Part shown: piece after piece, positions 17,399-33,981 of the stretch
How positions within the stretch are numbered: position 1 is the stretch's first letter
Layout: each line of letters begins with the position of its first letter
IMG/VR virus record: IMGVR_UViG_2563366983_000010
Source: a virus
Lineage: Duplodnaviria > Heunggongvirae > Uroviricota > Caudoviricetes
Strand: one strand, 5' to 3'
Length of the DNA stretch: 33,981 bases
Translations under genes and position numbers: made by a program
The notes under the pieces: model-generated
Database searches by the model: none
Seen by the model: the letters and a program-made list of their open reading frames with translations, nothing else
Told to the model about the DNA's origin: nothing

Positions 17399-18301
17399 TT
17401 ATGCCGGGGTGGTGATGAACGGACTGACCACGATGTCCACATCCTTGTACCAGATGTTGGAATCGCCGCCGTTTACCAGCATGGCGTCAATGATGCGCTT
17501 CGCAGCCGCGCGATTTTTCGGTCCCACCACAAGGGTGGTCGGGCGGATGCCCAGCGGTTCACCGTTGGTGGCCTTCATACCCAGCAGCAGATTACTGGCG
17601 CTCTCGTAGTTCTCCGCTGTCAGTGCCGCACGGGAACCGACGGCGGTTTGCCAGAAGCCGAATCCTGCATTACAGCGACCGTCCACCCCGTACAGGAACT
17701 CGTTATTCTTGAAGGTGTGCTCGCTGTTCAGATCGTCCAGGGCTTCAAACTTAAAGGCGCGTCGCGTCTGCCAGATGATGGGTTTCAGTACCTGAGAATC
17801 ATCAATCAGAAACCACGGTTCCCCCTGGTCTGATGCCGGGGTGCCGACAACGTTGCTGTATGTGCCGTCGCCCAGCGGGTGGTCTTCATCAAAGAAGTTC
17901 TGACCGTCAAAACACAGGGTGTTAAACCCGGCACACAGCAGGGGGTAACACAGCTTGTCCGGGAACTCTGACGTCTGGCGGCCATAGCGTTCAGCGATAA
18001 TGCTGTACTGACCAATCTGATCGTCTTCAATGTGTTCGCGTTTAACGCGGATCGAACTTTCCCAGGTTTTGTTCGCAAGGGTGTAACCATAACCGTCCAG
18101 CGTTGCCATCTGACGGGCGCTGACCCATTCTTTAATCTCCGGTAAATCTTTCATCCAGCCGTAGGTATTGGAAGCGGACGAACTCGGGATTTCAGAGGCG
18201 ATGCGCTGCCACTGTGGGGTAACACCACTCAGACCACGGGTATAAGCGGCGCTCAGGCAGGTGGTCAGCGCGTGAAGGACTTCGGAAGTGACTGCTCCCA
18301 T
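17399..18301 (-). CDS. Major capsid protein (Mu T-like)
   Basis: 300 aa, immediately downstream of the protease/scaffold gene (ATGA overlap). Confidence 0.8.
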   Translation of the reverse strand: MGAVTSEVLHALTTCLSAAYTRGLSGVTPQWQRIASEIPSSSASNTYGWMKDLPEIKEWVSARQMATLDGYGYTLANKTWESSIRVKREHIEDDQIGQYSIIAERYGRQTSEFPDKLCYPLLCAGFNTLCFDGQNFFDEDHPLGDGTYSNVVGTPASDQGEPWFLIDDSQVLKPIIWQTRRAFKFEALDDLNSEHTFKNNEFLYGVDGRCNAGFGFWQTAVGSRAALTAENYESASNLLLGMKATNGEPLGIRPTTLVVGPKNRAAAKRIIDAMLVNGGDSNIWYKDVDIVVSPFITTPA

Positions 18302-19263
18302 CAGTTATTCTCCTGTTTCGGTTTAGCGGCGAGGAACTCTTCCCCGGTAATACCCATGCTGCGGCACATCGCCAGTTCGGCGTCGGTCAGTGTCTGCGCG
18401 GGTTTATCCTTGCCCTGGCTGGGCTTGTCGTTGTTCACCAGCGGCTGTGCACCTCTGGTGTATTCCGCAAACTGTTTGCGGCCTTCTTCCGTGCGGCAGG
18501 TGGCAAGGAACATGTCACGGTTTGCCGGGGCCACTTTTCCGGCTTCGATGGCCGCATCCACAAGCGCTTCTGCTTCCTTAGCTTCCAGTTGCTGAAGGCG
18601 TTGTTCTGCGGTTTCTGCACGGTTCAGTGCCAGATTGTGGGTTTCCACCGGCACAAACTTCGTCAGGTCAGGTGTCTGTGCGCGGTTCAGCGCCACCTGT
18701 TCGCTCTCCTGAAGTTGTTTAATGGCGGCCACGGTATCGTCCACCGTGGCGGATTCAGCCAGCCCAAGCAGGCCGGTGATTTGCACAGGTACTGTCATCG
18801 GGTTTTTCTCCGTATTCAGTGCAGGAAAATCCAGGTTAGGTTTGTTGGTCAGCCCGACGCTGGACAGGCGCGTCACCACACCCTCCGCGTCATGGAAAAA
18901 CGCCGGGCTGTAATAGCGATAGCGGCGCTCGCTCAGCATCCACCTGGCGGATTCACTCCAGACAACACGCCCTTCAATGATGCCGTTGTCCGTCACCCGC
19001 AGTTCTTCCACCCAGCCATACGCCGGGGCTTCATCACCGCGTTGCCCTTTAATTTCGGTGGCGTGTTCAATGTCCACCGGAATTTTGATGTCGGACGAGC
19101 GGGTGACCACCTCATGCGGATTGCGGTTAATCCACGTCCGGCCATCGCGCCCGGTGAACTCACCCGCAGGGACGAGTTCAAGCCATTCCGGCAGTTGAGC
19201 GGGTGTCAGCTCAGGGATGGGTTCTGGCAGGGAAAAACACAGCGCCAGCAGTTCCGGTTGCAT
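18301..19263 (-). CDS. Head maturation protease / scaffold (Mu I-like)
   Basis: 320 aa; first gene after the F-I intergenic region; ATG at 19261-19263 with GGAG RBS. Confidence 0.75.
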   Translation of the reverse strand: MQPELLALCFSLPEPIPELTPAQLPEWLELVPAGEFTGRDGRTWINRNPHEVVTRSSDIKIPVDIEHATEIKGQRGDEAPAYGWVEELRVTDNGIIEGRVVWSESARWMLSERRYRYYSPAFFHDAEGVVTRLSSVGLTNKPNLDFPALNTEKNPMTVPVQITGLLGLAESATVDDTVAAIKQLQESEQVALNRAQTPDLTKFVPVETHNLALNRAETAEQRLQQLEAKEAEALVDAAIEAGKVAPANRDMFLATCRTEEGRKQFAEYTRGAQPLVNNDKPSQGKDKPAQTLTDAELAMCRSMGITGEEFLAAKPKQENN

Positions 19264-19312
19264 GTCAGTCTCCGTCGTTTGGGGTTACCGACGGTCAGTA
19301 TGCGGAAGGCAG

Positions 19313-19338
19313 AAAAAAAGCCGGATTTACCGGCTTCA
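19313..19338 (-). terminator. Intrinsic-terminator-like hairpin plus U-run (GAAGCCGG-TAAAT-CCGGCTTTTTTT); copy 1 of a duplicated element
   Basis: Minus strand reads TGAAGCCGGTAAATCCGGCTTTTTTT, identical over 26 bp to 26879-26904. Confidence 0.5.
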
Positions 19339-19476
19339 CTGAAAACGGGAAAATACCCCCTTCAAAACCCCTTCAAAAACGCCACAGCATCTTCAAAAAC
19401 GTCAGAATGCACATTCACGCCATCAGAATAAAAAACGCGTTTCTGATGCGTTTCAGGGGGATTTGCGGCGGGAGGG

Positions 19477-23915: not shown

Positions 23916-24192
23916 CTTCAGACCTCTGCGTTTTCAGACCGGCGTATATTTCTTCACGAACGGACTGAATATCCTTACTTAACAGCTTCCACAGCCGCGC
24001 ACATGCCGGTGATGATCGCAGGGCGCGTTTCATGGGGGTATCCGGTGCATCCGGGTTCCAGGGCTTTCCTGTCTGTTTTTCGTATGCACGGACAATGGCG
24101 TTTTGCTCAATATCTGCCAGCACAAGGCAGTACGCCAGTTGCCGCACGACGGCCCGTTCTCCGCGACTTAACGGCTTCAGTTTTCGGGCCAT
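23905..24192 (-). CDS. Hypothetical late protein (95 aa)
   Basis: ORF in the late operon with overlapping start/stop to neighbours. Confidence 0.4.
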   Translation of the reverse strand: MARKLKPLSRGERAVVRQLAYCLVLADIEQNAIVRAYEKQTGKPWNPDAPDTPMKRALRSSPACARLWKLLSKDIQSVREEIYAGLKTQRSEDGK

Positions 24193-24194
24193 GC

Positions 24195-24488
24195 TCAGTC
24201 CCTCGCACGGGGTTTTTTAACGCCCGGAACGCTGGACAGGCCGTTTGCCACATCCTCGCCGCTGCCGGTGATTTCAGCCACGTAACAGCCGCCCACATCA
24301 GACAGACGAACCAGCCCCTGCTCGCGAAGCCATGCAAGCTGAGTGCGCACCACATCACGGGATACCTTATGACCGTAAGCCTGAAGGCAGGTCTGCAACA
24401 CGGATTCATTCGCGCTGTCGCCACAGTCCAGCAGGGAACGCAGCAACACAAGACGACGGTCTTCAGTGAGGATCTCTTTCATCGCCAT
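24195..24488 (-). CDS. Hypothetical late protein, possible winged-helix fold (97 aa)
   Basis: Segment RTQLAWLREQGLVRL is winged-helix-like; function unknown. Confidence 0.4.
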   Translation of the reverse strand: MAMKEILTEDRRLVLLRSLLDCGDSANESVLQTCLQAYGHKVSRDVVRTQLAWLREQGLVRLSDVGGCYVAEITGSGEDVANGLSSVPGVKKPRARD

Positions 24489-24793
24489 TAATTTTTTTCC
24501 TTTAACTCGTTCTCTAATAACAAATCGCTGATGCGGGATACCTGGCGGATGGATGGCCCCAGTTCTTTGATTTCTCCCCGCAGATTGCTGATATCCAGTT
24601 GCAGGCGGTGGAACTCATCACGGTCGGGTAAATGGTGTACCTGGCTTTCCATCACCGACACGCGGGAACGGAGTGAATCAAACTCTTCACGTTTGACGTA
24701 GGTTTTCGCCAGAATCAGCTGAAGCAGGTTTATTCCTGTCATCAGCAATGCCCACAGAATGGGCCAGTTGGCTCTGATCATTTCCCAGGACAC
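24488..24793 (-). CDS. Membrane-anchored coiled-coil protein (i-spanin-like or lysis accessory)
   Basis: 101 aa; N-terminal hydrophobic segment (WPILWALLMTGINLLQLIL) followed by a charged helical region. Apparent GTG start, with an alternative ATG at 24781. Confidence 0.45.
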   Translation of the reverse strand: MSWEMIRANWPILWALLMTGINLLQLILAKTYVKREEFDSLRSRVSVMESQVHHLPDRDEFHRLQLDISNLRGEIKELGPSIRQVSRISDLLLENELKEKN

Positions 24794-25005
24794 GTTTTCC
24801 TCCTGCGTTCCCGCATCTGCTGACAGTCAATACAGGTCACCACATCCGGCAGCGCCGCAAGGCGCTGTGCCGGAATAACGTTCCCGCAGTCATTGCAGAA
24901 GCCCCGGCTGTGGGGCGTTTCTTTTGTCCGTGTTTGCCAGGCTTTAACGACGCTCTGACGCTCGTTCAGAACCACTTCACTGATGCGATCGATTTCGTCG
25001 GTCAT
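24778..25005 (-). CDS. TraR/DksA-family C4 zinc-finger protein
   Basis: 75 aa with CNDCGNVIP...CIDCQ spacing typical of TraR/DksA zinc ribbons; ATGA-coupled to the upstream gene. Confidence 0.6.
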   Translation of the reverse strand: MTDEIDRISEVVLNERQSVVKAWQTRTKETPHSRGFCNDCGNVIPAQRLAALPDVVTCIDCQQMRERRRKTCPGK

Positions 25006-25610
25006 TTCAGCCCCGCAGACATTTTGTGACGGCTTGATTTGCTGTAACGGGCAAAGCCGTCAAGGGTTCTTACACCGAGATAGCCCAGCGCCGGGGTAAG
25101 CAACATCAGCGTGATATCCCAGTCCGGTGATGGCATATGCAGCGTGATACCTCTGGCACCGGCAATGGCTCCGGCAATCTGGCCGCAGGAGAGCAACAGC
25201 ACATAGGCCAGACTGCTGTAACAGGAAAGGCGGGCCAGCAGCGGGCGTGTCTGGCGCACATAGCTGTCCGTGGCGTTGTCACCATTGCGGATGGTTTCCT
25301 GCTGTTCGTGGTGTGCGGCCTGCTGGTCAGCCAGCACCAGCTTCTGCCGTTCCACCTCCAGCTGTTGCAGCTGAACTTTCAGGGTTTCCAGCTGCATCAG
25401 TTGCTCCGGTGACAGCATCACCAGTTTTTGTTCCAGAATGCGTTGCTGTTCAGCCACCGGCAGGCTTTCCCGGACGCTTTCCACCATACCGGCCACCGAG
25501 TCAGCAGCGGCAGATGTGCTGCCACCAAACCAGCGCCCGACGGAACGAATCAGCCCCGGCCCGGCTTTCAGCAGAACAGAGGCGATGCCTGAAAGGGTTA
25601 ACGGATCCAC
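25002..25610 (-). CDS. Coiled-coil protein with C-terminal transmembrane segments (lysis-associated?)
   Basis: Start placed at the GTG at 25608-25610, preceded by GGAGG at 6-nt spacing. Gln/Leu-rich helical region, then hydrophobic segments (LAYVLLLSCGQIAGAIAGA and ITLMLLTPALGYLGV). Confidence 0.4.
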   Translation of the reverse strand: MDPLTLSGIASVLLKAGPGLIRSVGRWFGGSTSAAADSVAGMVESVRESLPVAEQQRILEQKLVMLSPEQLMQLETLKVQLQQLEVERQKLVLADQQAAHHEQQETIRNGDNATDSYVRQTRPLLARLSCYSSLAYVLLLSCGQIAGAIAGARGITLHMPSPDWDITLMLLTPALGYLGVRTLDGFARYSKSSRHKMSAGLK

Positions 25611-26023
25611 GGGAAACCTCCATACAGATAACGCTGAAGACAGAGCAGACCGCCGCAACAACCACCACACAGCCAGAACACCGGATGCACCGGTGACATC
25701 ATCATCAGCGTGCTGAAGACGCAGCAGAAATATCCCAGCGCCCAGACCACCCATGACCACACGATAATGTGGCGACCAAAAGCCCGGTAACGGACCTCAG
25801 GCAGCAGGCGAAATGGCACATTCCCGAGGCTTGCGCTGTATGAAAACAACACCACCCCGGCAAAGGACAACAACATCAACACGAACGATCGCCAGCCACA
25901 TAACATGCTGATGATGAACATGCAGAGTGTCAGTCCGGCCAGCGGCCATGGGGTTCTCATCAGTCGGGAACAAAGCAGCCAGTCACACAGTTTTAAAATT
26001 TTGTTCATTACCTTTTTCCACAT
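25598..26023 (-). CDS. Polytopic Cys-rich membrane protein (holin candidate or membrane moron)
   Basis: Start at Met58 of ORF 25598..26194 (MWKKVMNKILKL...), 141 aa with about four hydrophobic segments and many Cys. Confidence 0.4.
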   Translation of the reverse strand: MWKKVMNKILKLCDWLLCSRLMRTPWPLAGLTLCMFIISMLCGWRSFVLMLLSFAGVVLFSYSASLGNVPFRLLPEVRYRAFGRHIIVWSWVVWALGYFCCVFSTLMMMSPVHPVFWLCGGCCGGLLCLQRYLYGGFPWIR

Positions 26024-26234
26024 TGAATTTTTCCCTGTACTTCTGGCACTGCCAGAAAATGTCCCGTGTATCCACGGAGTTCCAGCCACGCATGTAGTAG
26101 CTGGCGTGTGTGCCGTCATGGCCGGTATAGTCCAGCGGTTTCGGAGGCGGGCCTCCGGCCATGCGGTGTAAAACCTCCTGACGCAGGCGGTCACGCCGCC
26201 CGGCTTTCAGGGAGGCGTCCCAGCCTTTGCCCAT
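25983..26234 (-). CDS. Hypothetical hydrophilic protein (83 aa)
   Basis: ATG one nt after the endolysin stop, with GGGGG RBS; overlaps the start of the membrane-protein gene in another frame. Confidence 0.3.
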   Translation of the reverse strand: MGKGWDASLKAGRRDRLRQEVLHRMAGGPPPKPLDYTGHDGTHASYYMRGWNSVDTRDIFWQCQKYREKFNVEKGNEQNFKTV

Positions 26235-26235
26235 G

Positions 26236-26823
26236 TCACCCCCGCGTGGTGGACGGCGCGTTGTCGATGATTTCCAGACAGGCGTCGGTCAGTTTTTCCA
26301 TGCGGTTAAACCAGCCATTCAGGTATTTGCCCTGGGCGGGTTTGGATTTGATGATTTCGGCATAAAAGCGGGAACGACGGACAATGCAGCGGGTCAGCAA
26401 CCAGTCCGGGGTGGACAGGCTCACGGCCTTACGGGTACGCGGGCCGATGATGCCGTCAGCATCCACATCAGTGGCTTCCTGCAAAATTTTGATAGCTTTT
26501 TTAACGCCATGCTGAACCGCCGCATCGAACACAAACATCGCCACGCCATCAGGCCACTGGTCACATCCGGCAGGCAGCCAGTAATCGCGCCAGTAAATCT
26601 GCGCAACCTGTTCGCGGGTTAAATCCTTAATGCGGGTGTCGGGTTTACCATCGCCGTTGACATCGGTTTTGCCGTCAATCACACCGTCGCGGCGGTCAGA
26701 AATGCCGTATTTGGTTTCGCCGCCACGGTCTGTGGGGTCATTGACATAGACGCCTTCGATATCAGGACGCAGAATAAAATTCAGCGCATGTTCAAAGGCC
26801 GGAGAGAATTTTTGATTTTCCAT
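26236..26823 (-). CDS. Endolysin, GH108-like lysozyme domain with C-terminal peptidoglycan-binding domain
   Basis: N-terminal EGVYVNDPTDRGGETKYGIS motif typical of glycoside hydrolase family 108; C-terminal DGIIGPRTRKAV motif typical of PG_binding_3. No signal peptide or SAR segment. Confidence 0.75.
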   Translation of the reverse strand: MENQKFSPAFEHALNFILRPDIEGVYVNDPTDRGGETKYGISDRRDGVIDGKTDVNGDGKPDTRIKDLTREQVAQIYWRDYWLPAGCDQWPDGVAMFVFDAAVQHGVKKAIKILQEATDVDADGIIGPRTRKAVSLSTPDWLLTRCIVRRSRFYAEIIKSKPAQGKYLNGWFNRMEKLTDACLEIIDNAPSTTRG

Positions 26824-26878
26824 AAAAGCACCTGTGAAGCAGAGTTAAACGTGGTCTGCTTCATAGTGCCGGAGGCAC

Positions 26879-26904
26879 AAAAAAAGCCGGATTTACCGGC
26901 TTCA
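26879..26904 (-). terminator. Intrinsic-terminator-like hairpin plus U-run; copy 2 of the duplicated element
   Basis: Identical 26 bp to 19313-19338; lies 20 nt after the stop of the 159-aa secreted-protein gene and 55 nt before the endolysin ATG. Confidence 0.55.
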
Positions 26905-26923
26905 TTGAATTAAGGGAAGATAA

Positions 26924-27403
26924 CTACTCATCTCCTTTGATGGAGCAATCTATTACCATATCGTTACCCATCTTGAGAAATTTGGTTTGCATGAGAAAAC
27001 CCTGTATCACGTCAGTTAACCCATACCCTTCAACTTTTGTAGCTGAAACTACCATGTCAATAATTCGTTTCTGCTGCTTCTCTGTTAGTTCACCAATTGC
27101 TGACTCTGCAACCCGCGAGCATGCTACAAAGGAAGACAACACACCTGAAGGATTGTTTTCAAAATCCTTTACAGTCGTCCTTGAGCTGACGACTTTATTA
27201 TTGATCGTAAATACCCCGAATTTGCTGTGAGCAGTTTCAGTTCCACCGTTCTTAATAGAATCGCCTCCCTTAAGAGGCATCCAGCTATTTAGTGCAATGA
27301 AATCTTTTTCTGTCAGACGTTTTTTGATGACATCTTCAGCTGGCAACTTTGCCGCATTAGCGCAAAATACGCTCAGTAAAAGTATAAGAGGAAAGTATTT
27401 CAT
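26924..27403 (-). CDS. Secreted/periplasmic protein with cleavable signal peptide, unknown function (159 aa)
   Basis: N-terminus MKYFPLILLLSVFCANA-AKLP is a classic Sec signal peptide. ATG overlaps the stop of the Mor-family gene (ATGA); AT-rich relative to neighbours; followed by the terminator hairpin. Confidence 0.6.
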   Translation of the reverse strand: MKYFPLILLLSVFCANAAKLPAEDVIKKRLTEKDFIALNSWMPLKGGDSIKNGGTETAHSKFGVFTINNKVVSSRTTVKDFENNPSGVLSSFVACSRVAESAIGELTEKQQKRIIDMVVSATKVEGYGLTDVIQGFLMQTKFLKMGNDMVIDCSIKGDE

Positions 27404-27810
27404 GACTCATCCTTAAACAGTTGCATTTGATATTTTCCACGCTCCAGCCTTCGCATTCTTTTGATAGCTTGATATACCGTTTTGTATGTCACTTTGTAAC
27501 GCTGCACCAGTTCCGCTACGTTTTTCCCATCAAAATCACGCCAGATGCGCATGTCTCTGATAAGATTTTCCAGTATTTTCCCTTTAGGAACATATACCTG
27601 AATCCCACCGATATGATTACAAATCGCCACTACCAACTCAAGGGAATAGACCGGGTTAACCCCAAGCCTTATCAGTTCCTGTCGCAACAGAGCATTCAGC
27701 TCTGAAAGTAGCGCCGGATAAACATATTTTTCCTGATAATCGTGAAGATATTCCAGAACGGTGTCGTCCCGGAAGTCTTCGAATAAATCCTGCTCTTTCA
27801 TCTGTTTCAT
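27400..27810 (-). CDS. mor: Mor/C-family transcription activator (middle/late gene activator)
   Basis: 136 aa with C-terminal helix-turn-helix (NVAELVQRYKVTYKTVYQAIKRMRRL); ATGA-coupled to gemA as mor is in Mu. Whether it acts as Mor, C, or both cannot be decided from sequence. Confidence 0.7.
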   Translation of the reverse strand: MKQMKEQDLFEDFRDDTVLEYLHDYQEKYVYPALLSELNALLRQELIRLGVNPVYSLELVVAICNHIGGIQVYVPKGKILENLIRDMRIWRDFDGKNVAELVQRYKVTYKTVYQAIKRMRRLERGKYQMQLFKDES

Positions 27811-28358
27811 ACAGCAATTCTCCCGCTGTTTCGTGCGCGGGCATACGCACTGGTCAGTGCATCATAGCCGCGCAGCTCCCGACCGGTTTCGCTCACAGGT
27901 AAAGGCACACCATGTCGGGCAAAGGCTTCACGGATGCAGCGCATATGCCACTGTTTGAGCGTTTCGAGCACAACCTGCAACGATTCCCCGTGACACCAGG
28001 CCAGTGTGGAAACCCCCTGACCGCCATTACGTCTGGCCGTCAGGCGCTCAACGTATTTGTCCAGCGCGGCGTCGCTGATATCGGAAACGAAACCATCAAG
28101 GAACATCTGCTGCCAGATTTTGTAAATCTTCTCGCGTGGTGTGACATGCCCCTTAAAGCGACGGCGGGGATGTTTTTTCTGCTTCTTAAAACCGCGCTTT
28201 TTCATGGCATCGAGCACTTGTTCCAGTTGTGCAACGGACAGCTCGCGGCAACTGGTTTTGCCCGTGCACTGCACCAGAAAAGCTCGGTAAGTGTCATCGT
28301 CGAGTTGCAACTCCCGACGGGCAACATGAATTAATTTAATCAGGGATGTGCGGCTCAT
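27807..28358 (-). CDS. gemA: GemA-like early protein (Mu gp16 family)
   Basis: Start at Met16 of ORF 27807..28403 (MSRTSLIKLIHVARRELQLDDDTYRAF), AAGGAG RBS; sits directly upstream of the Mor-family gene. Confidence 0.65.
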   Translation of the reverse strand: MSRTSLIKLIHVARRELQLDDDTYRAFLVQCTGKTSCRELSVAQLEQVLDAMKKRGFKKQKKHPRRRFKGHVTPREKIYKIWQQMFLDGFVSDISDAALDKYVERLTARRNGGQGVSTLAWCHGESLQVVLETLKQWHMRCIREAFARHGVPLPVSETGRELRGYDALTSAYARARNSGRIAV

Positions 28359-28725
28359 TATGTCCCATCTCCTTAATGCAGTGTTTTTCGACCCATGCCA
28401 CACGAGCAGAATTCAGGTGACATCTGCCAAGTCTGCATTCCTCATGATAGTGCGCTCTACTTTCATTGAAAGGTAATAATTCATCCAACTCGTTCGCGAT
28501 AAAATCTGCACGTAATTGTTCTAATATATCTTCGGTATCCACTCCGATTTCGTCAAAATAACGACAAGCATTTGCACATAATCCTGAATATTGAACAAAT
28601 ATTTCACCCTCTGTTTCTGGTGCACCATTTTTTAACCACTGGTTATAGGCAACATAAAAATCATAAAGATGTTTTCTGGTGCTGGCGGATGTGGATTTAA
28701 TTTCATTTTTCTCTGCGTTATTCAT
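28336..28725 (-). CDS. Hypothetical early protein, Cys/His-rich C-terminus (129 aa)
   Basis: Start at Met12 of ORF 28336..28758 with AAGAGG RBS at 9-nt spacing; C-terminal HYHEECRLGRCH...HC could bind metal. Confidence 0.45.
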   Translation of the reverse strand: MNNAEKNEIKSTSASTRKHLYDFYVAYNQWLKNGAPETEGEIFVQYSGLCANACRYFDEIGVDTEDILEQLRADFIANELDELLPFNESRAHYHEECRLGRCHLNSARVAWVEKHCIKEMGHNEPHIPD

Positions 28726-28900
28726 TTCGTAATACCTCTTCGCAATAAAAGATTTCACTGGGATAATGTTTTTGTATGCGCTCCATCACCTGCATACAGG
28801 CCTGCTCTGTGGGCCAGATTTTTTCCGTTACCGGGATGGCATCGCAGGCATCATTCCCGCAGGTGCCAACCAGCAGGACAAAGCCAATTGACTTAACCAT
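28718..28900 (-). CDS. Small Cys-rich protein with hydrophobic N-terminus (60 aa)
   Basis: Start at Met23 of ORF 28718..28966 (MVKSIGFVLLVGTCGNDACD...); possible signal or lipoprotein-like leader; six Cys. Confidence 0.35.
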   Translation of the reverse strand: MVKSIGFVLLVGTCGNDACDAIPVTEKIWPTEQACMQVMERIQKHYPSEIFYCEEVLRNE

Positions 28901-29432
28901 GCTCGCTGACTTCCTGTGTTGTCGCCGGAACCGGTGAATAATCAAGAATGAGATAACGCACCACATGGTCGGTGATATTCCAGCCGCTTAAACTGCAAAT
29001 AAAACGCCCCAGCCGTAAATCGATATGCGCCATCGCAAAACGAGGCATTCCCTGTTTGCACATCTCGTCATCCACTTCTGCAACGATGTGAACCGACTCG
29101 CAGGTCAGTACGCCTGTCGCAAATTCTTTTGCCAGTGCCGGAATGGCGTTGCTTTCCAGCCAGGGCAACGAACGACGGAACGTGCACCATTTAGCATCAT
29201 CAACAGCGGGTTGCTCCGTTGCGTTTCGTCTTACTGGCGGCGTCTGACGAGGGCGCGGAACGTCATAAAATCCGTTGCTTTCAGTGAGAACTCCGGCATC
29301 AACCGCATCACGCAGGAAATACACCATTGAGGAAGGTGGCATATTCATTTTTTCAGCCAGAACGCCACAGGTCAGACGCCCGTAAGCCCGTAATAATGTG
29401 CTGACACCGTTCAGAACTTTTGCATCAACCAT
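28893..29432 (-). CDS. Hypothetical early protein with N-terminal winged-helix-like region (179 aa)
   Basis: ATG at 29430-29432 with AAGGA RBS; N-terminal TLLRAYGRLTCGVLAEKMNMPPSSMVYFLRDAVDAGVL resembles a wHTH. Confidence 0.5.
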   Translation of the reverse strand: MVDAKVLNGVSTLLRAYGRLTCGVLAEKMNMPPSSMVYFLRDAVDAGVLTESNGFYDVPRPRQTPPVRRNATEQPAVDDAKWCTFRRSLPWLESNAIPALAKEFATGVLTCESVHIVAEVDDEMCKQGMPRFAMAHIDLRLGRFICSLSGWNITDHVVRYLILDYSPVPATTQEVSEHG

Positions 29433-29530
29433 TTTTTATTCCTTAGTAATCTGTTTCAGGCGCGAGCAATCCCCTGACGCATCGCGCCATAATTAAAAGA
29501 AAGTGAACTAATTAAATATTAATGGTGATA

Positions 29531-30055
29531 TTAAATACCGGCTTCCTGTTCAAACGGAATAATAGAAAAATCTTCAATGCCTGATTTAACTGTAATTCCG
29601 GCAACACCTGCGACCGCTTTCGGTTCCAGTAAAATCGCTTCCTTGTTGATTTCCTGTTTCGTGCGAATAAAGCGTTGCAGGCCAAGACGCTCCAGTGTTT
29701 CCATCACCGCATCCACACCGCGAATATTTACTGATGGTGGGCGCTGACGCCATGACACATCGCCGGTTACCAGATTTGCCGTCTTCACCTTACCGCCGTT
29801 CGTCAGTTCGTCACGGTTCGCTTCACACCATCCCTGAACGCCTTTTGAAAGGGTTTCAATGCTGGTTTTAAGCGGCGTAATCTGTGAGGCGTATTTCTCA
29901 GTAATTTCAGCGATAGCGTCATTCATTTCCGTTTCAAGTCGTGCCGCTTCGCGTTGCAGGTCACCAATCCGGCGAATATCACACATCACTGCATCGCGGG
30001 ACTGTGGAACATAAGCCGCTGCGGCGTTCTTGATTCGTTTTACTGGTCTAGCCAT
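29531..30055 (-). CDS. gam: Gam host-nuclease inhibitor (Ku-like DNA end-binding protein)
   Basis: 174 aa, near-identical over most of its length to Mu Gam as I recall it (e.g. GWCEANRDELTNGGKVKTANLVTGDVSWR, KEAILLEPKAVAGVAGITVKSGIEDFSIIPFEQEAGI). Confidence 0.9.
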   Translation of the reverse strand: MARPVKRIKNAAAAYVPQSRDAVMCDIRRIGDLQREAARLETEMNDAIAEITEKYASQITPLKTSIETLSKGVQGWCEANRDELTNGGKVKTANLVTGDVSWRQRPPSVNIRGVDAVMETLERLGLQRFIRTKQEINKEAILLEPKAVAGVAGITVKSGIEDFSIIPFEQEAGI

Positions 30056-30073
30056 AAATAAAGCTCCTGTTAA

Positions 30074-30364
30074 TTAATATTCGCTGTATACAATGCCGGA
30101 TACAGCACGATTGCTTAATTCCATCTTCTGGGCTATCACATGAATAGCCAGCCCTTCTTTATAAAGTTCACGACACAAATATTTGTCGTGCTCACTGACC
30201 CGGTATGCACACAACGATATTCCGTGCCTTCTGGCATGCGCCTGTAGGGCGGTTGGGGCAACGTTCAGTTTTTTCGCCATTTCTTCAACGGTCAGTTTCC
30301 CGACGTTGGCTTCGATAAATTCCCGGTCTTCGCGTGACCATCTTTTGCGAGGGATTATCATCAT
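30074..30364 (-). CDS. Small early protein with two helix-turn-helix-like segments (96 aa)
   Basis: Start chosen at the tandem ATG (Met26/27) of ORF 30074..30439; start is uncertain. Confidence 0.4.
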   Translation of the reverse strand: MMIIPRKRWSREDREFIEANVGKLTVEEMAKKLNVAPTALQAHARRHGISLCAYRVSEHDKYLCRELYKEGLAIHVIAQKMELSNRAVSGIVYSEY

Positions 30365-30380
30365 GCCTCCTTCCCTGAAA

Positions 30381-30650
30381 TTAATGTTTGGCTGCATCCG
30401 GGTTATACCGGAATAACTCGCCTTCGGCTTCCAGCCCAAGTTCTCTGGCTGACTTCAACAACTCCTGGGTTGCTTTTTCAATAATTTCAGGAGCCATGCT
30501 CTTGATAATGCCTGCCATCACGTCATGCGGTCCGATTTGCTCCTTAGGAGACTGTTCTTCCAGTTGCACACTCATTCCTACAAAGAAACCTCCTTTTTTC
30601 TGAAACTCAACATCTTCCATGCGGTTAAATTCAAAGATTACTTTTGCCAT
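30381..30650 (-). CDS. Hypothetical early protein (89 aa)
   Basis: Start at Met19 of ORF 30381..30704 with GAGGAA RBS. Confidence 0.45.
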   Translation of the reverse strand: MAKVIFEFNRMEDVEFQKKGGFFVGMSVQLEEQSPKEQIGPHDVMAGIIKSMAPEIIEKATQELLKSARELGLEAEGELFRYNPDAAKH

Positions 30651-30682
30651 TTTGTTATTCCTCACAAATAAATAAGCCGTTA

Positions 30683-30910
30683 TTAACGCCAGATAATCTG
30701 GCAACCATTAAGGCGGGCCGTCCATACGGAACGGGCAACCCCTGATTTATGCTCCATAATCCTGACAGCGTTTCTGACCAGCTCCGGTGGCGGGCAGGTA
30801 ATTTCAAGCACCGGGCGGGCCACGCCCAGCCAGGATTCGTTGACGTGGCTGCCGCGCTCCTGTAACCAGGTCTTTACTTCCGTCGCCATTTTGATATTCC
30901 GTGACATCAT
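30683..30910 (-). CDS. Kil-like small early protein
   Basis: 75 aa starting [21 protein letters not shown], first gene after B as kil is in Mu; name assigned by position and size. Confidence 0.5.
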
Positions 30911-30923
30911 GATTTCGCTCTCC

Positions 30924-31862
30924 TTACGTGCGCAGCAGGGTTGAAATATCAACGTCCAGGTCTAATTCACGGAAAGCCTGACGCAGATAATTTTCATTAA
31001 CACGATCGCCTTTACCGTAGGCTGTCATGGCCGCAAGGCGCAGCGAGTGATTCAGGATACGAAGCGCACCTGGTTTTTGTGCAATCTGTTGTAATAATTC
31101 CCGCTCGTTTTCGCCGGTAATTTGCCAGGCATCCGCAATGGCTTTTACATCGTCAATTTTGGTTTTATTGATTGCCGTCCGTTTGGCAATACGGGAAAAC
31201 AGGCGGGCAAATTCAACCGTTCTGTTACCACCGGTCATGTTTGAATAAACGCGGTGATTCCCCATCAGAACAAGACCAATACGGGCGGACTCCTGTAACA
31301 GGCGGAGTTCTTCCAGAACCTCAGCGCCAAGATGATCAGCTTCGTCGATAATGACCAGCCCCTGCGTACCTTCAAGACGGCGTCTCAAAGCGCGGGAGAG
31401 TGGCCCCTTACGGCGCGGTGCGTCATTCATTCCCAGTTCATAAGCCAGTTCAGTCAGGCATTCCAGAACACTGGCACAGGATGGGGTAATGGTGATCATC
31501 CAGACATTGTTATTGGTGCGACGAAATTCGCGGGCCGCTTCAGTTTTTCCCACTCCTGGATTACCACAGATAACAGAAATACTTTCAGTCAGGCTGGCAA
31601 AACGCATACTTGTCCAGATTTGGCGGACCGTTCTGGTTTCCACAAAACGCGGGGGTTCTGGCAGTTCTGCGGCGCGGTGATAGTTCTCCAGCCAGCGTTC
31701 AAGAGACTGCGCGACACGTTCATTGTCGCCGTTGTACTTGTCATTCACGAATGCGCTTAACGTTCCTGCGGCCACCCCAGACTCGCGGGCGATTTGTGCA
31801 TAAGTTGTTTTTTCATTTTCTACAAGCGTGCGCAGTCCTGCACGAATATCGGAAATATTCAT
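30924..31862 (-). CDS. B: Transposition ATPase / target DNA activator B (MuB, AAA+)
   Basis: 312 aa; [17 protein letters not shown]-terminus with HTH, Walker A (GNPGVGKTE) and Walker B ([10 protein letters not shown]); closely matches Mu B as recalled. Confidence 0.9.
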
Positions 31863-31899: not shown

Positions 31900-33981
31900 T
31901 TAAATGGCTTTTTTACGTCTGTTCTGTTCCAGAATATCCAGTGAATTATTCAGATATTCGTCGCGGTCGCTTTCATATTCATCGTCCGGTTCATCTGCCA
32001 GCACTGGCACGACTTTCTCCACTGGTCTGTAGACGTTGCTGAACAACCCGTTGCCTGTAACAGGAGCTGGCAGTGTTCGGGTATTCTCTGCCTCGGCCAG
32101 TCTGATTTTTTCCTCTCCGCGCTGACGCATCCCTTTGATACGCTGCTGGCGCTGATGGTATTCCGCAGTGACCGGGAATGCCTGCTGTTTATTGCCATCC
32201 CAGACAGCCTCACAGATATAGGAACCGTCCATGCGGCGGATAATTACTTTTGTTGCATCATGAATATCGTAATTCACCAGCACCTTATTACCGTGCTCAT
32301 ATTCCAGGTCAGTTGAATAATAAATATTATTAAACAGCCTGACTTCACAGCGGTTGACTGTACGTTCAATCTGGGGCATAAACATTTCACGCAGTTCAAG
32401 GTCGGACAACCATTCGATTTCCGTCGCTTCTTTTTCCAGTTTGTAGCGTCGGAACTGCGCCGGGGTGTAATGTTCACCGTTTCCACGTAGTGGTAGCGAA
32501 CTATGCGGACGGTTGTTGTACCATTCCACACCAGCTTCAATAGCAGCAATAAGTTCATTCCATGACGGCAGGTTTTTTAAAGCCTGCCGTTGTTTTTCAG
32601 TCAGCTCCCGTCCTTTGTTTGCCGCATTTGTTGCAGATATCAGAGCCTTTGTCGTCCGGCGAACCGTTCCACGGTCGGCACCGGTGCCATAATACGTGGC
32701 AAACTGGCGTGATATGCGCATAGCCAGAGTACGGTTCAGACGCTCTATAATCCCTCGCCCTTGCGGGTTTTCCGGTATACCAAGACGGTGATCAATTCCA
32801 AGACGCGGTAAGACACCCGTAATATCAGCATCGAACGTGTTATTGGTTTCACCGCCGCCATTATCTGAATAATAGATATACGGTTTGCCGTGATTTTTTA
32901 TTCCGTGGCGTAACGCATCAGCAACAGCAACCACACTTTCAGAAAGTGCCAGACTCCAGCCCACAATAAAGCGGCAACTGCCGTCCATGATAAAGGTGAC
33001 TTCTGGGGAAAATGGATTGCCGTGATCAGGATGTGCCACTTTCATCTTCATGCCGTGACCATCACCAATCCAGGCATAATTTACCGGTAAAGATAACCAG
33101 TCCCGACGCACGAAGCCTTCATACTGCCGGAACTCGCTGCCTGTAACGCGCCCACGTTGTTTCACAACAACCGGGAGTTTGTTCATGGCATAGCAAACCT
33201 GATCATACGACGGCAGTGCTGCACACATCGCAGGATTGTCCTGATGCACTTCATACCATTCCGCAGCAAAATCATCATAAGCCTCTCGTATTCCGCACCC
33301 GTTCGGACGGCGGTAAAAGCGAAGAAACTCTGGTAACCAGCGAATCTGGTCTGGTTTTATGGGCTGACGTTTGCCTGGTGCCAGCATGATCAGACGTTCA
33401 GCCGGAGTGGTTGCTTTTTTAAAATCAGCAATCCAGCGTTTCAGTGATATTTCACTAAGGGAGCGCAAAGAACCTTTTTTCGCGTTCGCAGTTGCAACGG
33501 TTTCCACCAGGTGTGCCGGTAACTCACCGTTTTGAGCCTGTTTCACAAACTCACGGATAGCGGCGGCCTGGCTGATTCCTGGTAGTTCACAAACGCGCAA
33601 AACTTCGCTGACAATCGCAATCCGGGCATCCGCTGTTTCTTTTTGCGTAGCGGTTAACGTTCCGAGTTTCTGCTCAAACAGCGCAGGACATTTGCGGTAA
33701 ACCGCAATTTTGCCGTCTTCACGTTTTTTTAAACGCGGAGATTCAGGTTCTTTTGCCTCAGTTGCTGGCTGATTCATTAACGCCTTAATCTGGCGAGCCT
33801 GTAACGCCTTACGCGCCACATCAGGCAAACAGTCGACATGGAACTCAAAAGCCTTTGTCCCTGCACGCTTACGCATCATTCCTTCTGATTCGCCGCAATA
33901 ACGGCGCAATGCTTCCCGAATTCCTTTAATTGTTTTTGGTAATCCTGGTACACCGACCAGCTCTTTGGCGAGAACAAACAT
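31900..33981 (-). CDS. A: DDE transposase A (MuA family), apparently complete
   Basis: 693 aa. N-terminal GLPKT motif as in MuA domain I; WIGDGHG (DDE Asp region); C-terminal DDEYESDRDEYLNNSLDILEQNRRKKAI matches the MuA C-terminal tail. ATG at 33979-33981 is the last codon of the window. Confidence 0.85.
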   Translation of the reverse strand: MFVLAKELVGVPGLPKTIKGIREALRRYCGESEGMMRKRAGTKAFEFHVDCLPDVARKALQARQIKALMNQPATEAKEPESPRLKKREDGKIAVYRKCPALFEQKLGTLTATQKETADARIAIVSEVLRVCELPGISQAAAIREFVKQAQNGELPAHLVETVATANAKKGSLRSLSEISLKRWIADFKKATTPAERLIMLAPGKRQPIKPDQIRWLPEFLRFYRRPNGCGIREAYDDFAAEWYEVHQDNPAMCAALPSYDQVCYAMNKLPVVVKQRGRVTGSEFRQYEGFVRRDWLSLPVNYAWIGDGHGMKMKVAHPDHGNPFSPEVTFIMDGSCRFIVGWSLALSESVVAVADALRHGIKNHGKPYIYYSDNGGGETNNTFDADITGVLPRLGIDHRLGIPENPQGRGIIERLNRTLAMRISRQFATYYGTGADRGTVRRTTKALISATNAANKGRELTEKQRQALKNLPSWNELIAAIEAGVEWYNNRPHSSLPLRGNGEHYTPAQFRRYKLEKEATEIEWLSDLELREMFMPQIERTVNRCEVRLFNNIYYSTDLEYEHGNKVLVNYDIHDATKVIIRRMDGSYICEAVWDGNKQQAFPVTAEYHQRQQRIKGMRQRGEEKIRLAEAENTRTLPAPVTGNGLFSNVYRPVEKVVPVLADEPDDEYESDRDEYLNNSLDILEQNRRKKAI

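What the first reader, a model, noticed from the sequence alone, without database searches (positions are those of the whole stretch)
27400..27810. Only one Mor/C-family activator detectable; middle-to-late cascade may be collapsed
Mu uses two paralogous activators: Mor (early operon, activates Pm) and C (middle transcript, activates Plys, PI, PP, Pmom). In this window only one Mor/C-type protein is found, overlapping gemA like mor. Either this single protein directly activates the late promoters, or a C-like gene is highly diverged or encoded elsewhere. The shared 44-bp element upstream of lys and I would be the natural target.
Basis: inference. Interest (0 to 1): 0.5.

Follow-up and report, generated by a model that had tools for sequence, protein, structure and literature searches.

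The report
Single Mor activator with Pm-type late promoters
This Mu-like prophage has only one Mor/C-type activator, and near-copies of phage Mu's Mor-dependent middle promoter sit in front of its lysis and head genes, so it probably runs a two-step rather than Mu's three-step gene cascade, a layout that is the norm among Mu relatives.

Summary
The window is a Mu-like prophage on the minus strand. It encodes one Mor/C-family protein (27400-27810, 136 aa), which overlaps gemA by 4 bp as mor does in Mu. The protein is 59% identical to Mu Mor and 32% identical to Mu C. Family HMMs run on all 778 six-frame ORFs find no second copy, although the same approach recovers both Mor and C in Mu. The shared element upstream of lys and I is essentially Mu's middle promoter Pm. 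It has a 16-bp Mor box overlapping an intrinsic terminator hairpin, then T7, 10 nt and a -10-like hexamer. It does not resemble the Mu late promoters examined. Eleven related prophages, in six other genera and E. coli, show one activator within the stretch examined (Mor +-10 kb; in ECONIH4 from Mor to beyond the right end). All have the box before lys and most before I. In some of them the hairpin has decayed while the box is kept. A third candidate box lies inside the gp45-like baseplate gene. I found no box for com-mom. Among phage records, only Mu's own genus carries two copies. This is probably a direct Mor-to-late two-tier cascade. It is ordinary as gene content, but the promoter wiring is worth noting. 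All of it is untested experimentally.

The parts
27807..28403 (-). gemA homolog, the penultimate conserved gene of the early operon
   Evidence: Pfam PF06252 GemA at E=1.1e-32. Its stop overlaps the Mor ATG (ATGA).
27400..27810 (-). Mor ortholog (136 aa), the only Mor/C-family gene in the window
   Evidence: PF08765 at E=3.9e-29 and phrog_532 'late transcriptional activator' at 4.8e-39. It is 59% identical to Mu Mor and 32% to Mu C. It is the only hit of the family HMMs in six frames. It carries an N-terminal EQDLF and a C-terminal QMQLF.
26924..27403 (-). 159-aa ORF with a hydrophobic N-terminus resembling a signal peptide (judged by eye), lying between mor and the terminator/promoter; its start overlaps the mor stop (ATGA)
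   Evidence: No Pfam hit; phrog_38744, function unknown. Mu has no gene here: the Pm element starts 8 bp after the mor stop. This slot holds different ORFs in relatives.
26891..26906 (-). Mor box 1 (AATGA-AGCCGG-TAAAT), a candidate Mor-binding dyad upstream of lys
   Evidence: It aligns with the Mu Pm dyad AGTAA-AGCCGG-TTAAT, which I placed at -51..-36 from the published description (PMC4287176). PWM score is 29.3 against a shuffle maximum of 17.2. It is conserved upstream of lys in all related loci.
26879..26903 (-). Intrinsic terminator (8-bp stem, 5-nt loop, T7) overlapping box 1; the probable end of the early transcript
   Evidence: Terminator scan. RNA fold is -19.4 kcal/mol, z=-4.85. Mu has the same hairpin after mor.
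26863..26868 (-). -10-like hexamer CACTAT of the lys promoter, 22 nt after the box, with no -35
   Evidence: The spacing is the same as Mu Pm TATCCT. The hexamers at this position in the relatives fit a CAnAnT pattern in most sites; A at position 2 and T at position 6 are not universal.
26236..26823 (-). Endolysin (GH108 plus a PG-binding domain), first gene of the lysis/packaging operon
   Evidence: Pfam PF05838 at 1e-23 and PF09374 at 8.6e-17.
19325..19340 (-). Mor box 2 (AGTGA-AGCCGG-TAAAT) upstream of the protease/scaffold gene I
   Evidence: PWM score 28.9. Related I-upstream sites keep the 16-bp box even where the 3' hairpin arm is lost (L008, L009, L017).
19313..19337 (-). Second copy of the intrinsic terminator, overlapping box 2; the probable end of the lys-to-F operon
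   Evidence: -13.8 kcal/mol.
19297..19302 (-). -10-like hexamer CATACT of the I promoter
   Evidence: It lies 22 nt after the box. The core CCTTCCGCATACTGAC matches the Mu PI core CCTCCCGCAAACTGAC at 14 of 16 positions.
18301..19263 (-). Gene I homolog (phage protease), first gene of the head/tail operon
   Evidence: PGAP calls the ortholog in L002 'phage protease'. tblastn synteny across the relatives.
8373..8388 (-). Candidate Mor box 3 (AGGGA-AAACGG-TAAAT) inside the gp45-like baseplate gene, about 150 bp before the gp46-like gene
   Evidence: PWM score 21.4 against a shuffle maximum of 17.2. In 22 distinct homologs (aligned proteins 48-100% identical) the codons read GGG in 21/22, AAT in 21/21 and only GTA/GTT, and the residue at codon 126 varies (T/S/R/K) while the final G is kept. 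Mu has no box at the homologous codons.
8344..8349 (-). -10-like hexamer TATTAT, 23 nt after box 3
   Evidence: The 23-nt spacing equals that of the I-type sites in L006, L008, L009 and L017. The hexamer is less clear in homologs.
2008..2878 (-). com (2666-2878) and mom (2008-2757), late genes that need C in Mu; no Mor- or C-type box is recognisable upstream here
   Evidence: Pfam Zn_ribbon_Com at 3.1e-7 and Mom at 3.3e-76. The upstream sequence has a GATC cluster but no PWM hit. Mu Pmom box for comparison.

Best explanation
The prophage runs a two-tier lytic cascade. The early operon (A, B ... gemA, mor, ORF159) ends at an intrinsic terminator. The 5' half of that terminator, with the bases just upstream, forms a 16-bp Mor box.

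Once the Mor ortholog accumulates, it binds this box, centred near -43.5 of a promoter that has a -10-like hexamer but no -35, and recruits sigma-70 RNA polymerase as Mu Mor does at Pm. Here the promoter drives the lysis/packaging operon (lys to F) directly, not a middle operon that carries C.

A second copy of the same terminator-plus-box module ends that operon and restarts transcription at gene I for head and tail genes. A third, hairpin-less box inside the gp45-like gene may boost baseplate and tail-fibre genes.

Shown directly:
- gene content;
- sequence identity of the elements to Mu Pm;
- their conservation across relatives.

Inferred:
- Mor binding;
- promoter activity and transcription start sites;
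- timing of expression.
For: There is a single Mor ortholog and no paralog.

Boxes 1 and 2 match Mu Pm in box, T7, spacing and -10 position. In Mu, Pm is Mor-dependent and its Mor dyad lies at -51 to -36. Mor does not activate C-type promoters and C does not activate Pm (PMC4287176, PMC4390567).

The Mu late promoters I read (Plys, PI, Pmom) have different upstream sequences.

The architecture recurs in relatives. Ten related loci from Raoultella, Pluralibacter, Serratia, Klebsiella, Kluyvera and Brenneria, plus two E. coli prophages, share the order mor - variable ORF - box - lys ... F - box - I. Each shows one Mor/C homolog over the stretch searched or annotated.

The 16-bp box survives where the 3' hairpin arm and T-tract have decayed (L008, L009, L017 I-sites). 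Where stem bases changed, the change is compensated in the stretch that Howe's group describe as the G/C-rich spacer of the dyad (L004_I, L012_I).

Box 3 shows nucleotide-level constraint inside a coding region and is absent from Mu.

The protein carries a C-terminal QMQLF. Most orthologs in alignment A1 also end in Q-x-x-L-F, resembling the C-terminal clamp-binding motif QPDLF of MuC. The authors of PMC12867686 report only an N-terminal motif for Mu Mor, whose C-terminus ends QPSLL.
Against: There are no experimental data for this phage.

The half-sites differ from Mu at one position each (AGTGA or AATGA against AGTAA; TAAAT against TTAAT), and the protein is only 59% identical to Mu Mor, so binding is assumed rather than shown.

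The -10-like hexamers are weak (CACTAT, CATACT), and start sites are unknown.

Only two strong boxes serve about 25 kb of late genes. Box 3 is coding sequence, its score in the divergent prophage L017 (16.2) is below the shuffle maximum, and the related sequences are not independent.

The com-mom promoter, which is C-dependent in Mu, has no recognisable box, so at least one late unit is unexplained.

A lysis operon fired directly by an early-operon product raises a timing problem that I cannot resolve from sequence.
Confidence: 0.75

Rival explanations
1. The repeated element is only an intrinsic terminator or operon insulator. It was inherited together with the Mu-like early-operon end and duplicated, and has no promoter role. 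Late genes would then be expressed by read-through or from promoters not recognised here.
For: Both window copies are textbook terminators: an 8-bp GC-rich stem followed by T7. The compensatory stem changes in L004_I and L012_I are what an RNA hairpin predicts.
Against: In L008, L009 and L017 the I-upstream copy has lost the 3' arm and the T-tract but keeps the 16-bp box and the 23-nt distance to a conserved hexamer. Box 3 has no hairpin at all. The identical Mu element is a proven Mor-dependent promoter (PMC4287176). A terminator with no restart point immediately upstream of lys and of I would block late expression.
Confidence: 0.1
2. A second-tier late activator exists but is not a recognisable Mor/C homolog. 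Candidates are a small conserved protein of the lysis/packaging operon, such as the TraR/DksA-type zinc-finger protein (24778-25005), or one of the unknown ORFs. In this reading Mor turns on the lys operon only, and that factor turns on the remaining late units, for example mom or the tail genes.
For: com-mom has no Mor box. Only two or three boxes serve all late genes. A TraR/DksA-like gene is conserved in every relative. From my own knowledge, TraR-family proteins act on RNA polymerase.
Against: The I promoter carries the same box as lys, so head genes need no extra factor. No DNA-binding activator family was detected in the unknown ORFs. TraR/DksA proteins are not sequence-specific promoter activators (my own knowledge). 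The gp26-like ORF (24195-24488) is also present in Mu, which has C, so it is not a substitute for C.
Confidence: 0.1
3. The prophage is a regulatory cripple. It descends from a Mu-type three-tier phage that lost C, and its late genes are no longer properly expressed.
For: Compared with Mu, the region between mor and lys lacks gp20 and C. Homologs of gp18 and gp19 sit after lys instead.
Against: The same layout with intact ORFs is found in at least six other genera and in about 46 complete E. coli genomes. Of 54 phage records with a family member, including isolated phages, only the 14 two-copy records from Mu and its close relatives (Mu, D108, SfMu, the Yersinia vB_YpM phages and others) carry two copies. 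The boxes are under purifying selection.
Confidence: 0.03

Closest known systems
Phage Mu middle promoter Pm with its activator Mor
   Same: The activator is 59% identical to Mu Mor and its gene overlaps gemA in the same way. The promoter module is nearly the same: a box in the Mu pattern AGTAA-AGCCGG-TTAAT overlapping the hairpin after the early operon, then T7, 10 nt and a -10 hexamer, with no -35.
   Different: In Mu, Pm occurs once and drives a short middle operon (gp18-gp20 and C). Here the module occurs twice, possibly three times, and drives lysis/packaging and head/tail genes directly. One base differs in each half-site. An extra 159-aa gene sits between mor and the module.
[quoted passage not shown]
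   Same: The same target genes are placed under a Mor/C-family activator: lys first, I first. The I core promoter is homologous (14 of 16 bases). The protein has a C-like C-terminal Q-x-x-L-F motif.
   Different: There is no C gene. The protein is only 32% identical to C. The boxes are Pm-type, not the C-type ATTAT-N6-ATAAC seen at Pmom. There is no box at the N/P junction or upstream of com.
Other Mu-like phages annotated with a single Mor/C-family gene (BcepMu, phiE255, SuMu, KS10, Vibrio, Shewanella and Pasteurella Mu-like phages)
   Same: They have one family member per genome. The SuMu and KS10 genome papers list only Mor (PMC3447690, PMC2628397).
   Different: I found no description of those phages' late promoters in the searchable library. 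Their activators are much more distant from Mu Mor than this one, so a Pm-type box cannot be assumed for them.

Membership tests
[quoted passage not shown] | Significant match to the family profile over the whole domain | tested here: met
   PF08765 at E=3.9e-29, 101.2 bits against a cut-off of 24.9, residues 31-131 on profile positions 3-107 of 107. phrog_532 at 4.8e-39.
[quoted passage not shown] | Small protein (about 100-150 aa) with an acidic N-terminal half, a basic C-terminal half with an HTH, and a conserved linker strand (GGxQ.Y.P) | tested here: met
   The protein is 136 aa. Residues 1-68 have 12 D/E and 6 K/R; residues 69-136 have 8 D/E and 16 K/R. G68, G69, Q71, Y73 and P75 are invariant in alignment A1. 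There are weak HTH_28/HTH_23 hits at residues 94-121. Family description from PMC2582627.
[quoted passage not shown] | Binds a 16-bp imperfect dyad centred near -43.5 of a promoter that lacks a -35, and activates sigma-70 RNA polymerase | not testable with these tools
   Candidate sites with the right geometry exist. Binding and activation need EMSA or footprinting and transcription assays.
Ortholog of Mu Mor rather than Mu C | Closer in sequence to Mor than to C, and in the same genomic position (last conserved early gene, overlapping gemA) | tested here: met
   59% identity to Mor (E=1.4e-56) against 32% to C (E=9e-17). ATGA overlap with gemA.
Mu Pm-type (Mor-dependent) promoter | Dyad of two 5-bp arms around a G/C-rich 6-bp spacer at -51..-36, a recognisable -10, and no -35 | tested here: met
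   Boxes 1 and 2 align base for base with the Mu Pm box and share T7 plus 10 nt before the hexamer. Positions are as published (PMC4287176, PMC4390567). I inferred which Mu bases are -51..-36 from the published description, because the figure is not held in the library.
Mu Pm-type (Mor-dependent) promoter | Transcription depends on Mor in vivo and in vitro | not testable with these tools
   Needs reporter fusions or in vitro transcription.
Mu-type three-tier cascade (Mor -> Pm -> C -> late promoters) | A second paralog (C) encoded downstream of Pm | tested here: not met
   No second family member in six frames with three HMM/phmmer searches and a positive control. lys follows the Pm-like module directly.
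Mu-type three-tier cascade (Mor -> Pm -> C -> late promoters) | C-type boxes (TTAT-N5-6-ATAA at about -43.5) upstream of lys, I, P and com | tested here: not met
   The three TTAT-N5-6-ATAA matches in the window lie at 1271, 30403 and 30747, none near a late operon. The motif is weakly specific even in Mu.
Beta-clamp-dependent Mor/MuC activators (PMC12867686) | Clamp-binding motifs: N-terminal Qx[DE][LM]F and C-terminal QPDLF-like | tested here: inconclusive
   The N-terminus reads EQDLF and the C-terminus QMQLF. Both are near-consensus, but clamp binding is untested. Motif definitions.

The most novel reading that the evidence does not exclude
The roughly 45-bp module is a reusable, bifunctional 'stop-and-restart' cassette. 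One sequence acts both as an intrinsic terminator that insulates each operon from upstream read-through and as the Mor-dependent promoter of the next operon.

On this reading, the ancestral Mu-like programme was two-tier, with Mor driving all late operons from such cassettes. Mu's C protein and its four C-specific promoters would be a later rewiring. That rewiring replaced the activator box on otherwise homologous core promoters (as at PI) and split the original Pm operon, leaving gp18 and gp19 behind as 'middle' genes.
Probability: 0.35. Interest if true: 0.55.

Novelty: new variant of a known kind. Interest (0 to 1): 0.4.

Why it matters
Mu is the textbook example of an early-middle-late cascade built from two paralogous activators. 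The evidence here suggests that close relatives, including prophages in dozens of E. coli genomes, place Mu's middle-promoter module directly in front of late operons and do without C.

If that is right, three things follow.
- It gives a natural experiment on how a regulatory tier is added or removed.
- It gives a simple test of Mor/C promoter specificity, because the homologous I core promoters carry different activator boxes.
- It gives a set of predicted Mor boxes for annotating late promoters in Mu-like prophages.

It also raises a question about timing. Lysis and packaging must be delayed relative to transposition without a middle step, possibly through the clamp-binding motifs recently described for MuC.

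Tried and rejected
- **Second Mor/C paralog.** I ran HMM and phmmer searches on all six-frame ORFs of at least 25 aa, with a positive control in Mu. Nothing was found.
- **Other regulators among the unknown ORFs.** Pfam and PHROGs scans of ORFs around mor, the lysis region and the right end found no other activator family. The only notable hit was a TraR/DksA-type zinc finger.
- **C-type boxes.** Searching TTAT-N5-6-ATAA gave three hits, none near a late operon. The motif is unspecific even in Mu.
- **Loose dyad searches.** GCCGG-N5-CCGGC with mismatches and CCGG-N4-8-CCGG produced only noise apart from the two elements. A hairpin-anchored search also gave only the two on the coding strand.
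- **A Mor box upstream of com-mom.** None was found. There is only GTGA-T-TAAAT, which lacks the 6-bp spacer, and I judged it coincidental. A relative fetched for comparison turned out to be a true Mu-type prophage with the Mu Pmom sequence, so it was uninformative.
- **Weaker PWM hits.** Sites at 24181 and 29789 score 14.0 and 12.9, below the shuffle maximum of 17.2, and were dropped.
- **Literature.** Searches for a published statement on Mor boxes in single-activator Mu-like phages, or on the Mu early terminator t9.2, found nothing usable in the library. That the Mu hairpin acts as the early terminator therefore rests on my own recollection plus the fold.
- **Inverted repeat downstream of the -10.** I considered reading it as a 5' mRNA hairpin. 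If the -10 assignment is right, the predicted start falls inside its 5' arm, so I leave it unexplained.

Full report
**What the window is**

All long ORFs lie on the minus strand and form a Mu-like prophage. It runs from transposase A (31900-33981) and B through gam, gemA and mor to lysis, packaging, head, tail, tail-fibre, com and mom genes. Beyond the right end lies an EptA/EptB-type gene (1-1725). The B-to-gam early segment (window about 28900-31000) is about 87% identical in DNA to Mu, D108 and SfMu; the rest of the 24000-31000 query is too diverged for megablast. About 46 complete E. coli genomes carry 90-97% identical copies of the mor-to-I region. One strain is 99.8% identical over a 601-bp gp45/gp46 query and another is 100% identical over a 481-bp com-region query.

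**The observation**

The ORF at 27400-27810 is a Mor-family protein (PF08765, E=3.9e-29). Its ATG overlaps the gemA stop in an ATGA, as in Mu. It is 59% identical to Mu Mor and 32% to Mu C, while Mu Mor and C are 37% identical to each other. It is therefore a Mor ortholog.

To test 'only one', I translated every stop-to-stop ORF of at least 25 aa in six frames (778 ORFs) and ran three kinds of search:
- an HMM of Mor orthologs plus Mu Mor and C;
- phmmer with Mu C and with Mu Mor;
- an HMM of 119 diverse family members taken from a search of 1.8 billion representatives.

Each search returns this ORF alone. The broad HMM scores it at E=1.4e-42 and the next ORF at E=1.5. Built without Mu sequences, the same broad HMM finds both C (7.8e-43) and Mor (5.3e-39) in Mu, so a C-like paralog would have been seen.

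Only the c/ner left end lies outside the window. In a 96.6%-identical E. coli relative, that end holds only ner- and c-like genes.

**The shared element**

The repeat is real: 19301-19343 and 26867-26909, with a 23-nt core found exactly twice in the window and never in shuffles. Read on the coding strand, the two copies are:
- lys copy: AATGA-AGCCGG-TAAAT-CCGGC-T7-GTGCCTCCGG-CACTAT;
- I copy: AGTGA-AGCCGG-TAAAT-CCGGC-T7-CTGCCTTCCG-CATACT.

The sequence just after mor in Mu is AGTAA-AGCCGG-TTAAT-CCGGC-T7-ACGTCCTCAA-TATCCT. That is Mu's middle promoter Pm. A published cloning primer named 'Mu Pm nt9163' spans this sequence (PMC9239132).

Howe's group showed that Mor binds a 16-bp dyad of two 5-bp arms around a G/C-rich 6-bp spacer. 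The dyad lies at -51 to -36, centred at -43.5, in a promoter with a -10 but no -35. They also showed that Mor does not activate C-dependent promoters and C does not activate Pm (PMC4390567, PMC4287176).

The only 16-mer in Mu that fits that description is AGTAA-AGCCGG-TTAAT. This placement is my inference, because the figure is not held in the library. The window elements keep this 16-mer with one change per arm, and keep the exact 22-nt distance to a -10-like hexamer.

The upstream regions of Mu Plys, PI and Pmom look different. Pmom, for example, reads ATTAT-GCCCCA-ATAAC.

The same sequence is also a canonical intrinsic terminator: an 8-bp stem, a 5-nt loop and T7, folding at -19.4 and -13.8 kcal/mol.

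**Comparative test**

A pattern scan of one genome per species returned 13 loci with Mor orthologs (60-68% identical). Ten of them are long enough to analyse, from Raoultella, Pluralibacter, Serratia, Klebsiella, Kluyvera and Brenneria. I also used the annotated UMNF18 relative (L002) and fetched a diverged E. coli prophage whose gp45/gp46 region is 67% identical in DNA (ECONIH4, L017).

- **Copy number.** The HMM finds one Mor/C homolog in each of the ten loci and L002 within the stretch held, and two in Mu. For L017 the evidence is the PGAP annotation, which lists a single Mor-family CDS.
- **Gene order.** All share mor - variable small ORF - box - lys - ... - F - box - I - T.
- **lys copies.** Every lys copy has a perfect hairpin and a T-tract, as expected if it also terminates the early operon.
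- **I copies.** These are informative. L004 and L012 carry compensatory stem changes (AACCGG/CCGGTT and AGGCGG/CCGCCT) that fall in the spacer of the Mor dyad. L008, L009 and L017 have lost the 3' arm and the T-tract altogether, yet retain the pattern A..GA-A..CGG-TTAAT and a conserved hexamer 23 nt downstream.

So the 16-bp box is conserved independently of the terminator. That argues for a DNA-binding site and against the 'terminator only' rival.

**Other late units**

A position weight matrix built from the aligned boxes scores the two window sites at 29.3 and 28.9. It finds one more site above the shuffle maximum of 17.2: AGGGA-AAACGG-TAAAT at 8388-8373 on the coding strand, score 21.4. 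This lies inside the gp45-like baseplate gene, with TATTAT 23 nt downstream and the gp46-like start about 150 bp further on.

Because the site is coding, I aligned 22 distinct homologs by codon (aligned proteins 48-100% identical). At the box:
- Gly is GGG in 21/22, the lowest codon entropy of 13 conserved Gly columns;
- Asn is AAT in 21/21, whereas another conserved Asn column splits 13 to 9;
- Val is only GTA or GTT, which matches the A/T position of the box;
- the residue at codon 126 varies (T, S, R or K) while its last base stays G.

Mu, which has the C-dependent PP upstream of P, reads TGT AAA ACG GTT GAG at these codons, which is not a box. I regard box 3 as a reasonable candidate at about 50%. 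The related sequences are not independent, and the -10 is unclear in homologs.

The com-mom module has a GATC cluster like Mu Pmom and a -10-like TATTAC without a -35. It has neither a Mor box nor a C box. How mom is activated remains open.

**How unusual this is**

A tblastn search with Mu C against 50,697 phage records finds 54 records with a family member. Fourteen have two copies: Mu, D108, SfMu, the Yersinia vB_YpM phages, PhiR68_1 and Mu_3F6. Every other listed record has one, including complete phages of Burkholderia, Vibrio, Shewanella, Pasteurella, Pseudomonas, Ralstonia, Klebsiella and Pseudoalteromonas; two short Mu fragments that do not span both genes also show one. The SuMu and KS10 genome papers likewise list only Mor.

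Single copy is therefore the norm, and the bare observation is ordinary. What I could not find in the searchable literature is the point that relatives place Pm-type modules in front of late operons.

Two further details fit a rewiring scenario in which Mu's third tier is the derived state, though the direction is not proven:
- Homologs of Mu's middle genes gp18 (69% identical) and gp19 sit after lys here.
- The I core promoter is homologous to Mu PI (14 of 16 bases), while the activator box upstream differs.

**A C-like trait in the single activator**

A 2026 study showed that MuC needs two beta-clamp-binding motifs (QHDLF and QPDLF) for late transcription. It found only an N-terminal DLF motif in Mu Mor (PMC12867686). 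The window protein has EQDLF at its N-terminus and QMQLF at its C-terminus. Most orthologs in alignment A1 also end in Q-x-x-L-F, some exactly QPDLF, whereas Mu Mor ends QPSLL. This is compatible with the single activator also coupling late transcription to replication. It is only a motif match.

**Verdict**

The gene content is ordinary. The promoter wiring is a modest new variant of a well-known system and is directly testable.

Noticed in passing
window 26924-27403 (-): A 159-aa ORF whose hydrophobic N-terminus (MKYFPLILLLSVFCANA) looks like a signal peptide (judged by eye). It is inserted between mor and the terminator/promoter, and its start overlaps the mor stop (ATGA). It has no Pfam hit and matches phrog_38744 (function unknown). 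Relatives carry different ORFs in this slot, and Mu has none. It looks like a cargo ('moron') position at the end of the early operon.
   Followed up: partly
window 24778-25005 (-): A TraR/DksA-type C4 zinc-finger protein (PF01258 at 7e-11; phrog_54) lies just upstream of the DUF2730 releasin-like gene. It is conserved in every related prophage examined. Mu gp24, at the equivalent position, gave no such Pfam hit. It may modulate RNA polymerase during late development.
   Followed up: partly
window 2879-2977 (-), upstream of com: The com-mom module carries a cluster of four GATC sites, reminiscent of the Dam/OxyR control region of Mu Pmom. It has a -10-like TATTAC with no -35, and no Mor- or C-type box. 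Similarity to relatives starts abruptly at about 2977, which marks a mosaic joint with the tail-fibre genes.
   Followed up: partly
window 19272-19294 (-), and the I-upstream regions of L003-L012 and L017: There is an inverted repeat between the -10-like hexamer and the I start codon (CCGTCG ... CGACGG). It is conserved across genera with compensatory changes (for example TCCGTCAG/CGACGGA, TCCGG/CCGGA, TCTGCAT/ATGCGGA) and overlaps the likely ribosome-binding site. Mu PI has an analogous repeat. Its role is unknown, and the predicted transcription start may fall inside its 5' arm.
   Followed up: partly
window 19360-19400 (-): Three copies of GTTTTTGAAG / GGTTTTGAAGG lie just upstream of the I box. 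The region resembles the sequence next to the annotated strong gyrase site of Mu (between G and I) and is conserved in relatives. It may be a gyrase-site homolog.
   Followed up: no
window 25983-26234 and 25598-26194 (-): Homologs of Mu middle-operon genes gp18 (69% identical) and gp19 (32% identical) sit directly after lys here, inside the lysis cluster, rather than before C as in Mu.
   Followed up: partly
window 1-1725 (-): A phosphoethanolamine transferase gene of the EptA/EptB family (Sulfatase plus EptA_B_N domains) lies about 280 bp beyond mom. It is probably the host gene flanking the prophage right end. MuA-site-like TTTCGCGCGC lies near 1940-1950.
   Followed up: no
proteins P0057, P0058, P0065, P0074, P0083 and others: The representative library holds proteins of 200-280 aa with two tandem Mor-like stretches, that is, apparently fused double Mor/C domains. 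This is of interest given the reported tetrameric binding of Mor and C.
   Followed up: no
window 3016-5368 (-): The tail-fibre region has a lambda-type 'prophage tail fibre N-terminal' protein (605 aa) and a Caudo_TAP assembly protein. There is no invertible G segment or gin invertase, unlike Mu and the diverged E. coli relative L017.
   Followed up: no
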